Shown piece after piece: positions 8,685-9,077 of a stretch of 29,891 nt of DNA. This DNA comes from an uncultured bacterium. Its GTDB lineage: Bacteria; Muiribacteriota; Ozemobacteria; Ozemobacterales; Ozemobacteraceae. The DNA is taken from the NCBI GenBank assembly GCA_964596185.1, contig CAZQUE010000055.1, positions 1 through 29,891 of the forward strand, in the 5' to 3' direction. Numbering within the stretch: the first letter of the stretch is position 1; every line of letters starts with the position of its first letter. The notes under the pieces are model-generated. The model was not told where the DNA came from and made no database searches. It saw nothing but the letters and a program-made list of their open reading frames with translations. Position numbers and translations under genes: made by a program.

Positions 8685-9077
8685 TTATTCGTCTTCGTCT
8701 TCGAAATCGTCGTCTTCGTCTTCAAAGTCGTCGTATTCTTCGAAATCGTCTTCGTCGTCAAGATCTTCTTCTTCGTCTAGATCTTCTTCTTCGTCGTCGA
8801 AATCGTCTTCGTCTTCTTCCTCTTCTTCATCTTCTTCGAAGTCGTCATCTTCGTCGTCGAGATCTTCTTCTTCGTCGTCGAAGTCTTCTTCGTCGTCATC
8901 GAAGTCTTCTTCTTCGTCGTCGAGATCTTCTTCTTCATCATCTATATAATCATCGTCGTCGAAGTCGTCAAAATCGTCTTCGTCGTCGAGATCTTCTTCA
9001 TCTTCATCGTCAAGGTCATCCCAGTCAGTCTGGGCTGCGAGAACTTTAATTTCTTCATTTTCAAACATCTTCGGCAT
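8685..9077 (-). CDS. Hyper-acidic poly-D/E low-complexity protein (130 aa)
   Basis: MPKMFENEEIKVLAAQTDWDD followed by about 105 residues of D/E punctuated by periodic L/F/Y. AAAGGGG SD is 9 nt upstream of the ATG, and a hairpin terminator lies downstream. The opposite-strand R/L-rich ORF has neither. Confidence 0.55.
   Translation of the reverse strand: MPKMFENEEIKVLAAQTDWDDLDDEDEEDLDDEDDFDDFDDDDYIDDEEEDLDDEEEDFDDDEEDFDDEEEDLDDEDDDFEEDEEEEEDEDDFDDEEEDLDEEEDLDDEDDFEEYDDFEDEDDDFEDEDE

What the first reader, a model, noticed from the sequence alone, without database searches (positions are those of the whole stretch)
8685..9077. 130-aa hyper-acidic poly-D/E protein with periodic aromatic/Leu residues
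About 80% Asp/Glu with a regularly spaced F/L/Y (DDF, DDL, EEY) after a short structured N-terminus (FENEEIKVLAAQTDW). It has a proper SD and a terminator. Such extreme polyanions in bacteria are candidates for DNA or polyphosphate mimicry, cation or polyamine buffering, or sequestration of basic proteins or nucleic-acid-binding proteins. The mirror-strand ORF is a poly-Arg/Leu artefact of the same triplet repeat.
Basis: seen in the sequence. Interest (0 to 1): 0.55.

Follow-up and report, generated by a model that had tools for sequence, protein, structure and literature searches.

The report
Riflebacteria-wide hyper-acidic disordered protein gene
This is a real gene, probably strongly expressed, found across the uncultivated phylum Riflebacteria; it encodes one of the most negatively charged proteins known (130 residues, net charge about -95), always sits beside a basic DNA-binding-type protein, and probably acts as a protein-made polyanion, but it matches no described family.

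Summary
Window 8685..9077 (- strand) encodes a 130-aa protein with 97 D/E residues (75% overall, 84% in residues 20-130). The other tail residues are only F, L, Y and I. It has its own near-consensus promoter, Shine-Dalgarno site and terminator.

The gene is coding on the - strand and under selection. Thirty distinct orthologues occur in Riflebacteria genomes and metagenomes. All 42 indels between close relatives are multiples of 3, and substitutions pile up at codon position 3. Promoter, leader and SD are conserved phylum-wide. D, E and F codon choice resembles that of the ribosomal-protein genes.

Across the family, D and E exchange freely. Basic, small and polar residues are excluded, and the hydrophobic residues are kept apart (spacing modes 7 and 3).

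The gene is always convergent with a Riflebacteria-specific basic zinc-knuckle plus winged-helix protein (7692..8291), even where the pair has moved away from ffh.

Best reading (inferred): an abundant disordered polyanion that decoys or chaperones basic nucleic-acid-binding proteins through many acidic-aromatic motifs. Its N-terminal cap and spaced bulky residues may also make it translatable.

It is not a member of RNA polymerase delta, the folded DNA mimics or the MgtL-type leaders. Function is untested. HMMER searches are blind to this protein.

The parts
8685..9077 (-). CDS of the 130-aa hyper-acidic protein (stop codon 8685..8687)
   Evidence: ORF listing and sequence. There are 30 unique orthologues. 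All 42 indels are 3n, and substitutions fall 1/1/27 by codon position against L007.
9012..9077 (-). N-terminal non-acidic cap, residues 1-22 (MPKMFENEEIKVLAAQTDWDDL): a conserved short motif with core Phi-Phi-[AS]-[APS]-[QK]-x-x-[WY]-[DE]
   Evidence: Alignment A1. The N-terminal cap also recurs, in diverged form, in distant members L029, L098 and L101.
8943..8972 (-). First aromatic cluster, residues 36-45 (FDDFDDDDYI), with Phi-x2-Phi spacing
   Evidence: Position conserved in most orthologues as FDDFDD, LEEFDD or LEDFDD.
8760..8942 (-). Central array, residues 46-106: about (D/E)6-[F/L] heptads encoded by a 21-nt tandem repeat
   Evidence: TRF period 21, 12.4 copies. Gap list 7,7,7,7,7,13,7,6,6. 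Shuffle test.
8721..8759 (-). C-terminal aromatic motif region, residues 107-119 (DDEDDFEEYDDFE), with Phi-x2-Phi-x2-Phi spacing
   Evidence: The best-conserved block of the tail (FEDYDDFED, LEDFDDFED, FDDFDDFDD); the 70-100% conservation marks in A1 fall here.
8688..8720 (-). Acidic C-terminal tail, residues 120-130 (DEDDDFEDEDE)
9086..9094 (-). Shine-Dalgarno AGAAAGGGG, followed by a conserved 8-nt spacer TTATCGTC (9078..9085)
   Evidence: Present in every orthologue examined, with small variants in a few: AGAAAGGGG[T/A]TATCGTC-ATGCC.
9078..9131 (-). Predicted A/U-rich 5' leader of about 54 nt (the start site is inferred from the -10 box)
   Evidence: Leader alignment of 11 species shows no conserved secondary structure. 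No Rfam match.
9138..9175 (-). Promoter: T-tract, -35 TTGACA (9167..9162), 18-nt spacer, -10 TATATT (9143..9138)
   Evidence: Consensus scan gives 11 of 12 matches. The block TTTTTTTGTTGACA-N18-TATATTGCA is conserved in nearly all orthologues, including L029.
8625..8658 (-). Rho-independent terminator (10-bp stem with 6 GC pairs, 4-nt loop, then CTTTTATT)
   Evidence: Nearly every orthologue has a different GC-rich hairpin plus T-run after its stop codon; L029 shows none.
7692..8291 (+). Convergent neighbour ORF199, a candidate partner: basic N-terminal Cys/His knuckle (residues 1-44, charge +8.6), winged helix, disordered linker, helical C-domain
   Evidence: Adjacent to and convergent with the acidic gene in every locus with sequence available, even after the pair moved away from ffh. 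The family has 155 clusters, and every one that carries an organism name is Riflebacteria. The N-terminus is invariant. AF2 pLDDT is 79 with winged-helix matches. pI is 9.35.
8681..9049 (+). Mirror-strand 122-aa R/L-rich ORF: an artefact of the GAN repeat, not a gene
   Evidence: The substitutions that fall on codon position 3 of the - frame fall on position 2 of this frame. Promoter, SD and terminator all face the other way.

Best explanation
Shown: this is a stand-alone, monocistronic gene on the - strand. It defines a new Riflebacteria-specific family of about 114-150-aa polyanionic proteins predicted to be intrinsically disordered. Each has a roughly 20-residue non-acidic N-terminal cap, then about 100-130 residues that are about 83% D/E. 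The tail is punctuated almost only by F, L, Y or I, which are kept 3 or about 7 residues apart, and it ends in a conserved Phi-x2-Phi-x2-Phi motif. Selection acts on charge, length and hydrophobic punctuation rather than on exact sequence.

Inferred from promoter, leader and codon use: the protein is made in large amounts.

Inferred mechanism: it acts as a protein-made polyanion. It would be a nucleic-acid-like decoy or electrostatic chaperone that wraps basic, nucleic-acid-binding surfaces through many weak acidic-aromatic contacts. The conserved N- and C-terminal motifs would give specific docking. The most likely specific client is the gene it is always inherited with, the basic zinc-knuckle plus winged-helix protein ORF199. 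The acidic protein would keep ORF199 soluble or compete with DNA or RNA for it, as an antirepressor or DNA mimic does. Ribosomal proteins or RNA polymerase are alternative clients, given the usual position next to the ffh-rpsP-rimM-trmD-rplS cluster.

Also inferred: the N-terminal cap and the evenly spaced bulky residues help the ribosome finish a chain that would otherwise cause intrinsic ribosome destabilization.

The confidence given (0.4) is for the inferred decoy/chaperone mechanism. That this is a real, conserved protein-coding gene I put at about 0.95.
For: Gene reality and strand:
- ORF, SD, promoter and terminator are all on the - strand.
- There are 30 unique orthologues.
- All 42 indels in 17 close pairs are multiples of 3. 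Substitutions fall by codon position as 1/1/27, 11/10/52 and so on.
- The CDS is identical in 7 assemblies.

Expression:
- T-tract, TTGACA, 18-nt spacer and TATATT, an unstructured A/U-rich leader and a strong SD are conserved across the phylum.
- GAC is 66%, GAA 98% and TTC 70% in this gene. The S16 and L19 genes give 88/95/67, and 20 other window genes give 36/73/37.
- The GAC excess over the neighbouring ffh holds in 25 of 26 orthologues; GAA is at least 0.9 in all but two.

Selection on the tail (3315 residues):
- The tails are 83% D/E, with the D:E ratio ranging from 33:55 to 94:17.
- Of 561 non-acidic residues, 442 are F, L, I or M, which need at least two nucleotide changes from GAN codons.
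- The six one-step neighbours N, K, H, Q, G and A total 49, with K = 3 and R = H = P = 0.
- Hydrophobic gaps of 2 or less are 4.4% against 28.7% in shuffles. Gaps of 6-8 are 47.6% against 17.5%. None of 2000 shuffles reaches either value.

Disorder: the AF2 model has pLDDT 56 and no secondary structure.

Partner:
- ORF199 is adjacent and convergent in all loci with flank available, including the rearranged L020, L021, L099 and L100 and the distant L098 and L101.
- ORF199 is basic (pI 9.35; N-terminal 44 residues carry +8.6) and has a winged-helix fold.

Precedents:
- The B. subtilis delta subunit has a disordered acidic C-terminal region with net charge -47 (PMC7749165).
- CarS is an antirepressor that mimics operator DNA (PMC2926617).
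- The acidic disordered regions of Npm2 and Nap1 act as DNA mimics (PMC10987829).

Translatability: D/E runs abort translation unless about 30 residues already fill the exit tunnel or bulky residues precede them (10.1101/2021.02.02.429294).
Against: - There is no experimental or transcript evidence here; expression level is inferred only.
- No binding can be tested with these tools. Convergent gene pairs are not co-transcribed, so adjacency to ORF199 is suggestive rather than proof of interaction.
- The window's own N-terminal cap carries no basic patch, whereas distant members have KKK before the W. A single conserved docking chemistry is therefore not obvious.
- Codon counts are inflated by the repeated 21-nt unit and rest on few ribosomal-protein codons.
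- Hydrophobic punctuation could be explained entirely by translatability, which would leave a non-specific bulk-anion role.
- One Riflebacteria locus (L026) has neither gene within 4 kb of ffh.
Confidence: 0.4

Rival explanations
1. Bulk cytoplasmic counter-ion or cation buffer. The protein would be a genetically encoded poly-carboxylate that buffers Mg2+, K+, Ca2+, Fe2+ or polyamines, or serves as a macromolecular anion or osmolyte. The N-terminal cap and spaced bulky residues would exist only to make the chain translatable.
For: About 95 net negative charges. D and E are freely interchangeable, and repeat units turn over independently in each lineage while length and charge are kept. There are signals of high expression. 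Bulky residues and tunnel occupancy counteract D/E-induced abortion of translation. Two CorC/CNNM-type Mg2+/Co2+ efflux-related genes lie in the same window, which is weak evidence.
Against: F is preferred about 6-fold over Y, although Y is one mutational step from GAY and about as bulky. Bulk alone therefore does not explain the choice. The Phi-x2-Phi-x2-Phi C-terminal motif and the N-terminal motif are conserved in position. The strict linkage to ORF199 is unexplained.
Confidence: 0.2
2. An RNA-polymerase accessory factor that works like the acidic C-terminal region of the Firmicute delta subunit. The N-terminal cap would dock it to RNA polymerase, and the acidic tail would sweep nucleic acid out of the main channel, aiding recycling and promoter selectivity.
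For: The composition resembles the delta C-terminal region, which is disordered with net charge -47. The gene has housekeeping-like expression signals and lies in a housekeeping neighbourhood.
Against: There is no delta-type folded N-terminal domain. Only 19 non-acidic residues are present, and there is no Pfam or NCBIfam hit. No RNA polymerase gene is linked. The conserved linkage is to ORF199, not to transcription genes.
Confidence: 0.1
3. A sticker-and-spacer scaffold for complex coacervates. Aromatic stickers in a polyanionic spacer would drive condensates with polycations such as ribosomal proteins, ORF199 or polyamines, organising part of the cytoplasm or nucleoid.
For: Aromatic and Leu residues are evenly dispersed and never clustered; gaps of 2 or less are 4.4% against 28.7% in shuffles. 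The charge is extreme, disorder is predicted and high expression is inferred.
Against: This is purely an analogy with no direct evidence. The same features fit simple 1:1 or 1:n binding.
Confidence: 0.1
4. A regulatory leader-type ORF. Translation of the D/E run would abort in response to Mg2+ or Asp/Glu-tRNA supply, as with mgtL, or read-through would give antisense control of the convergent ORF199.
For: D/E runs are the known trigger of intrinsic ribosome destabilization, which mgtL uses to sense Mg2+. The gene converges on ORF199.
Against: A strong terminator follows the stop codon in nearly every orthologue, and no co-directional gene lies downstream. The C-terminal motif and total length are conserved, and codon use looks like that of highly expressed genes. 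These features fit a finished protein product.
Confidence: 0.05
5. Not a gene: a hypervariable non-coding triplet repeat, or the + strand R/L-rich ORF is the real product.
For: The region is a low-complexity tandem repeat that is open in several frames on both strands.
Against: All indels are 3n. The third-position substitution bias is in the - frame. The N-terminal motif, promoter, SD and terminator are conserved on the - strand. The CDS is identical in 7 assemblies.
Confidence: 0.02

Closest known systems
C-terminal region of the RNA polymerase delta subunit (RpoE) of Bacillota
   Same: A disordered, extremely acidic bacterial polypeptide in which D/E runs are interrupted by L, I, F or Y. 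It acts as a nucleic-acid competitor. The delta region has net charge -47 (PMC7749165).
   Different: Delta needs a folded 90-residue N-terminal domain to bind RNA polymerase. This protein has only a 19-22-residue cap, about twice the charge (-95), no K-tract and no sequence-family match.
DSS1/Sem1 and prothymosin-alpha type small acidic disordered proteins of eukaryotes (comparison from my own knowledge; PMC8442969 is listed)
   Same: Free-standing, small, disordered and highly acidic. DSS1 mixes D/E with aromatic residues and binds basic grooves and OB folds, acting as a DNA mimic.
   Different: These are eukaryotic and much less extreme: about 40-50% D/E against 75-84% here. No homology can be shown. 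Prothymosin-alpha lacks aromatic residues altogether.
Acidic disordered regions of histone chaperones (Npm2 A2, Nap1, ANP32, SET, DAXX poly-D/E)
   Same: Long D/E tracts shield basic nucleic-acid-binding proteins and mimic DNA (PMC10987829). From my own knowledge, acidic-then-aromatic 'DEF/Y'-type motifs anchor such tracts on H2A-H2B.
   Different: Those tracts are appendages of folded chaperone domains. Here the tract is essentially the whole protein, in a bacterium with no known histone client.
Bacterial DNA-mimic proteins DMP12 and HI1450 (which bind HU) and the antirepressor CarS
   Same: Small acidic bacterial proteins that occupy the DNA-binding surface of a basic DNA-binding protein (PMC3643605; PMC2926617). 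The proposed relation to the neighbouring winged-helix protein ORF199 would be of this kind.
   Different: Those proteins are folded and display carboxylates in a fixed dsDNA-like geometry, with pI about 4.4. This protein is predicted to be disordered, with far higher charge density.
MgtL-type D/E/P-rich leader peptides and intrinsic ribosome destabilization sequences
   Same: D/E runs close to the N-terminus are exactly the sequences that destabilise translating ribosomes. The cap and the bulky residues match the described countermeasures.
   Different: Leader peptides are short and control a downstream gene. This ORF is 130 codons, ends in a conserved motif and is followed by a terminator.

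Membership tests
RNA polymerase delta subunit (RpoE) | Folded N-terminal domain of about 70-90 residues (HARE-HTH / sigma-1.1-like) that binds RNA polymerase | tested here: not met
   No Pfam or NCBIfam hit at E <= 1. Only 19 non-acidic residues precede the acidic tract. AF2 shows no folded domain.
RNA polymerase delta subunit (RpoE) | Disordered, strongly acidic C-terminal region | tested here: met
   Residues 20-130 are 84% D/E, net charge is about -95, and the AF2 model has no secondary structure.
RNA polymerase delta subunit (RpoE) | Physical association with RNA polymerase core | not testable with these tools
   This needs pull-down or cryo-EM.
Folded DNA-mimic proteins (Ocr, ArdA, DMP12, HI1450, Ugi) | Compact fold that presents carboxylates in a dsDNA-like geometry | tested here: not met
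   The AF2 single-sequence model has pLDDT 56, pTM 0.13 and no helices or strands. The 18 hydrophobic residues in 111 are kept dispersed, which is incompatible with a hydrophobic core. There is no PDB sequence match at E <= 10. Caveat: the model was made without an alignment.
Folded DNA-mimic proteins (Ocr, ArdA, DMP12, HI1450, Ugi) | Binds the DNA-binding site of a specific DNA-binding protein | not testable with these tools
   Only the conserved adjacency to the basic winged-helix ORF199 hints at a client.
MgtL-type ribosome-destabilising leader ORFs | Short D/E/P-rich ORF upstream of, and co-directional with, the gene it regulates | tested here: not met
   The ORF is 130 codons. A terminator follows directly after the stop codon in nearly every orthologue. 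The next gene is convergent.
Phage or defence-related acidic proteins (anti-restriction type) | Membership of a phage or defence protein family, or location on phage or plasmid DNA | tested here: not met
   No PHROGs or PADLOC hit. No tblastn match in 50,697 phage records. No relative in IMG/VR contigs. The chromosomal context is housekeeping.
New Riflebacteria hyper-acidic protein family (defined here) | N-terminal cap motif, a tail of at least 76% D/E punctuated by F/L/Y/I, a C-terminal Phi-x2-Phi-x2-Phi motif, length 114-150 aa, convergent with ORF199 | tested here: met
   The window protein is the reference member. There are 30 unique members and the synteny holds. The C-terminal motif is weak or absent in the most distant members L029, L098 and L101.

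The most novel reading that the evidence does not exclude
The acidic protein and the invariant basic zinc-knuckle plus winged-helix protein ORF199 form a phylum-specific two-component system. A genetically encoded polyanion would stoichiometrically titrate, chaperone or phase-separate with a major nucleic-acid-binding protein. This would be a bacterial counterpart of the histone and acidic-chaperone relationship, evolved independently. The same gene would also be a natural example of how a ribosome can be made to synthesise an almost pure poly-D/E chain.
Probability: 0.15. Interest if true: 0.8.

Novelty: new variant of a known kind. Interest (0 to 1): 0.6.

Why it matters
Free-standing proteins that are 75-85% Asp/Glu are very rare in bacteria, and work on E. 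coli predicts they should be hard to translate at all.

A family that is conserved across a whole uncultivated phylum gives three things. It carries signals of high expression and is locked to one basic nucleic-acid-binding neighbour.
1. It offers a testable natural case of protein-based nucleic-acid mimicry or electrostatic chaperoning by a fully disordered bacterial protein.
2. It offers a natural solution to intrinsic ribosome destabilization: an N-terminal cap plus evenly spaced bulky residues. This could be tested directly in E. coli and PURE translation systems.
3. It gives an entry point into two of the many unknown lineage-specific genes of Riflebacteria.

It also exposes a blind spot. 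HMMER-based and word-index searches returned nothing, not even the query itself, so such proteins are systematically invisible to standard homology pipelines.

Tried and rejected
Searches that gave nothing:
- phmmer of the protein against 5.8 billion clusters: 8000 word candidates, none significant.
- A profile of the N-terminal 42 residues: swamped by D/E words, with one irrelevant 45-aa hit.
- Full HMMER scan of 1.84 billion representatives: zero hits, not even the query itself.
- Exact look-ups show the sequence is not in the clustered collection. These negatives therefore say nothing about how widely the family is distributed.
- Pfam, NCBIfam, PADLOC and PHROGs: no family.
- PDB sequences, phage genomes, IMG/VR contigs and Rfam: nothing meaningful.
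- The metagenome pattern scan needed a narrower alignment (one search failed). With [IV]LAAQ[TK]DW it found only 11 loci, all from the same family.
- The AFDB50 fold library was unavailable.

Ideas considered and rejected:
- A conserved RNA structure in the 5' leader was tested and not found. There were 4 invariant pairs and no covariation.
- A link to ffh as the primary partner was rejected. The pair of acidic gene and ORF199 stays together where ffh adjacency is lost (L020, L021, L099, L100).
- An upstream start codon (in-frame KGVIV) was rejected. The preceding codon varies (K, Q, E, M), and the conservation there is that of the SD and spacer.

Literature searches for 'hyperacidic' bacterial proteins and for Riflebacteria found no description of this family.
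Full report
**1. What is in the sequence**

Window 8685..9077 holds a 130-codon ORF on the - strand.
- The product is MPKMFENEEIKVLAAQTDW followed by 111 residues that contain 55 D, 38 E, 9 F, 6 L, 2 Y and 1 I, and nothing else.
- D/E content is 74.6% overall and 83.8% in the tail. Calculated net charge is about -95.
Eleven of 17 hydrophobic gaps are 6-8 residues, against 17% in shuffles, and 0 of 5000 shuffles reach this.
- The spacing rests on a 21-nt tandem repeat with 12.4 copies at 75% identity.

All expression signals are on the - strand.
- AGAAAGGGG lies 8 nt before the ATG.
- A TTGACA-18-TATATT promoter lies at 9167..9138, with 11 of 12 matches.
- A 10-bp hairpin plus T-run lies at 8658..8625.
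- The ffh promoter-like site (9275..9303, + strand) lies about 108 nt further on, so the two genes are transcribed divergently from separate promoters.

**2. Origin and relatives**

The exact protein is encoded on 10 metagenome contigs, of which 6 were shown.

I used the neighbouring Ffh as a handle, because the acidic protein itself cannot be searched (see section 7). This scan placed the window in Riflebacteria / Ca. Ozemobacteraceae. It returned 25 related loci with Ffh 74-99% identical, then unrelated Clostridia and others at 60% or less.
- A six-frame scan for ORFs with at least 60% D/E in a 50-residue window found one hyper-acidic ORF in nearly every Riflebacteria locus that has upstream flank.
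- It found none in the 55 non-Riflebacteria loci.
- A metagenome scan with the motif [IV]LAAQ[TK]DW added 11 loci.
- Look-ups of distant homologues of the neighbouring gene added three more.
- In total there are 30 unique proteins of 114-150 aa.

**3. It is a protein-coding gene under selection**

- *Indels.* In 17 pairs of close relatives, all 42 indels are 3, 6, 12, 18 or 27 nt.
- *Substitutions.* They concentrate at codon position 3 of the - frame. Examples are window against L007 at 1/1/27, against L009 at 11/10/52, and L012 against L030 at 1/1/29. That position is position 2 of the + strand ORF 8681..9049, so the + strand ORF is a mirror artefact.
- *Terminal motifs.* The N-terminal cap is conserved, with consensus MPKxxExEEIxxLAAQxDWDxLDD. 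Diverged forms occur in distant members, such as ...LLSPKKKWED. The C-terminal block FEDYDDFED is also conserved.
- *Strain variation.* The CDS is identical at nucleotide level in 7 assemblies from different samples. It is therefore not a hypervariable repeat within a species. Neighbouring species differ by one- to two-codon changes in E/D runs.
- *Residue choice* (30 tails, 3315 residues):
  - The tails are 83% D/E, with the D:E ratio ranging from 33:55 to 94:17.
  - Of 561 non-acidic residues, 442 are F, L, I or M, 45 are Y and 22 are V.
  - The six residues reachable from GAN codons by one mutation (N, K, H, Q, G, A) total only 49, with K = 3 and R = H = P = 0.
  - Mutation pressure on a GAN repeat would give the opposite pattern. 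Charge and hydrophobic punctuation are therefore selected, while the exact sequence is not.
- *Spacing.* Hydrophobic residues are kept apart. Gaps of 2 or less are 4.4% against 28.7% in shuffles, with modes at 7 and 3. None of 2000 shuffles is as extreme.
- *Repeat units.* They differ between lineages, for example DDDDEDDF in L101 and DDEDDDDF in L024. This indicates independent expansion and homogenisation under constant bulk constraints.

**4. Expression signals**

- The promoter block (T-tract, TTGACA, 18 nt, TATATTGCA), an A/U-rich leader of about 55 nt and AGAAAGGGGTTATCGTC-ATGCC are conserved across the phylum.
- Nearly every orthologue carries its own, unrelated GC hairpin plus T-run after the stop codon; L029 shows none. 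The gene is therefore monocistronic.
- The leader shows no conserved structure and no Rfam match.
- Codon choice is GAC 66%, GAA 98% and TTC 70%. This resembles the S16 and L19 genes (88/95/67) and differs from 20 other genes in the window (36/73/37).
- The GAC excess over the adjacent ffh holds in 25 of 26 orthologues.
- I infer high expression from these signals. It has not been measured, and the repeat structure inflates the codon counts.

**5. Structure**

A single-sequence AF2 model has pLDDT 56, pTM 0.13 and no secondary-structure elements. Together with the composition, this fits an intrinsically disordered polyanion. The model is weak evidence on its own.

**6. Context and the partner gene**

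Downstream of ffh lies a long housekeeping and ribosome-biogenesis cluster. It contains rpsP, a KH protein, rimM, trmD, rplS, lepB, an RbgA-like GTPase, phoH, a 7TM-HD protein, ybeY, two corC-like genes and era.

The tighter linkage is on the other side, to ORF 7692..8291 (+ strand, 199 aa, GTG start with a GAGG SD).
- It converges on the acidic gene in every locus with flank available.
- This holds in L020 and L021, where the pair is inverted and lies about 2.8 kb from ffh.
- It holds in L099 and L100, where two other genes separate the pair from ffh and pyruvate kinase follows.
- It holds in distant members with ORF199 only 53-59% identical.
- L026 lacks both genes near ffh.

ORF199 is itself a Riflebacteria-only family. 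It has 155 clusters, and every one that carries an organism name is Riflebacteria.
- Its N-terminus is invariant: MGRKRTCELPFCKGVVEGTRNKRRCDxDRNIHLH. Cys7, Cys12, Cys25, His32 and His34 are suggestive of a zinc knuckle.
- It then has a winged helix, a variable disordered linker and a conserved helical C-domain. AF2 pLDDT is 79.
- The best Foldseek PDB matches have E of about 0.04, to the PadR, BlaI, Fur and eS25 winged helices.
- It is basic, with pI 9.35, and its first 44 residues carry +8.6.

**7. Searches that failed, and why**

- Pfam, NCBIfam, PADLOC and PHROGs give no hit.
- phmmer and hmmsearch against the large protein collections return nothing, not even the query itself.
- Exact look-ups show the sequence is absent from the clustered collection.
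- These negatives reflect composition filters, word swamping and database content, not true absence.
- Distribution outside Riflebacteria is therefore only weakly tested. The evidence is that no such ORF lies near ffh in 55 other loci, and that the motif scan and the phage and viral searches found nothing else.
- No paper found describes the family. Riflebacteria are reported to be the phylum richest in novel gene families, with 26 putative synapomorphic ones (PMC10849945). I could not check whether this gene is among them.

**8. How it most likely works**

Shown: the protein is a conserved, selected, monocistronic polyanion with dispersed hydrophobic residues and conserved end motifs, and it is co-inherited with a basic winged-helix protein.

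Inferred: it binds basic nucleic-acid-binding surfaces multivalently and acts as a decoy or chaperone. The precedents are:
- the disordered acidic region of RNA polymerase delta, with net charge -47 (PMC7749165);
- the DNA mimics DMP12 and HI1450, which bind HU (PMC3643605);
- the antirepressor CarS (PMC2926617);
- the acidic disordered regions of histone chaperones (PMC10987829).

ORF199 is the prime candidate client. Ribosomal proteins and RNA polymerase are alternatives.

A second, compatible inference concerns translation.
- In E. coli, D/E runs near the N-terminus abort translation through intrinsic ribosome destabilization.
- This is countered by about 30 residues already in the exit tunnel, or by bulky residues just before the run (10.1101/2021.02.02.429294).
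- The ABCF factors EttA and YbiT also relieve it (PMC11162784).
- Here the acidic run starts at residue 20. D/E runs never exceed 18 residues, with per-protein maxima mostly 8-14, before a bulky residue appears.
- The cap and the periodic F/L/Y may therefore be partly a translatability device.
- Bulk alone does not explain the roughly 6-fold preference for F over Y, or the absence of Q, M, H and W. Hydrophobic contact is therefore also selected.

Rivals are pure cation or polyamine buffering, a delta-like RNA polymerase factor, a condensate scaffold and a leader-type sensor ORF. They are weighed in the report sections. The non-coding or + strand reading is rejected.

**9. Comparison with known families**

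It works most like the delta C-terminal region, DSS1 or histone-chaperone acidic tracts. It is not a member of any of these families.
- It has no delta N-terminal domain (tested, not met).
- It has no folded DNA-mimic scaffold (tested, not met; the caveat is that the model was made without an alignment).
- It has no downstream gene, as an MgtL-type leader would (tested, not met).
- It has no phage or defence affiliation (tested, not met).

I file it as a new family and a new variant of the known kind 'acidic disordered nucleic-acid mimic or chaperone'.

**10. Verdict**

The gene is real, phylum-wide and probably highly expressed. Its function is unknown experimentally. The mechanism proposed above has moderate-to-low confidence, but it can be tested directly.

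Noticed in passing
window 7692..8291 (+): ORF199 is a Riflebacteria-specific 199-aa protein with an invariant basic N-terminus (MGRKRTCELPFCKGVVEGTRNKRRCDxDRNIHLH; Cys7/Cys12/Cys25/His32/His34), a winged helix, a disordered linker and a helical C-domain. Gene callers often truncate it to 155 aa and call a spurious overlapping 69-75-aa ORF (7600..7827) instead.
   Followed up: yes
window 1830..4367 (+): An 845-aa protein with major-vault-protein shoulder (PF11978, E 5e-29), Vault_3 repeat and SPFH/Band-7 hits. It is a vault-like protein in a bacterium, and it is conserved next to the same locus in other contigs.
   Followed up: no
window 5363..7383 (-): Two tandem paralogous GalT-like (HIT superfamily, DUF4921/DUF4931) genes of 333 aa each, about 49% identical to each other. 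They are syntenic with ORF199 in most Riflebacteria.
   Followed up: partly
window 4551..5138 (-): An ORF6N-domain (KilA-N-like, antirepressor-type) protein sits between the vault-like gene and the GalT pair. It may be a mobile-element remnant.
   Followed up: no
window 8292..8634: The spacer between the ORF199 stop and the acidic gene's terminator is 393 nt here, but only about 90-216 nt in other species (L099, L101, L098, L009, L010). It holds only unconserved-looking 88-92-aa ORFs and has no Rfam hit. What fills it is unexplained.
   Followed up: partly
window 9132..9175 (- strand) and orthologous loci: The promoter is conserved well beyond the hexamers (GTATGCCTATATTGCA plus the upstream T-tract) across species whose Ffh is only about 74-80% identical. 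This suggests extra constraint, such as an UP element, a discriminator or a regulator site.
   Followed up: partly
databases: The exact acidic protein is indexed by gene position but is absent from the clustered protein collection. HMMER returns no hit even to the query itself. Extreme low-complexity proteins are a systematic blind spot of these pipelines.
   Followed up: yes
L008, L011, L022, L023: MAGs labelled Ca. Methylomirabilis, Erysipelotrichia and Ca. Avigastranaerophilus carry Ffh 79-92% identical to the Riflebacteria window and share the same locus. This points to mislabelled or mis-binned contigs in public records.
   Followed up: no
window 9350..24786 (+): A long co-directional housekeeping cluster: ffh, rpsP, a KH protein, rimM, trmD, rplS, lepB, an RbgA-like GTPase, phoH, a 7TM-HD protein, ybeY, two corC/CNNM genes, DUF502, DUF3048 and era. 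It is rich in ribosome-biogenesis genes, and the acidic gene sits divergently at its head.
   Followed up: partly
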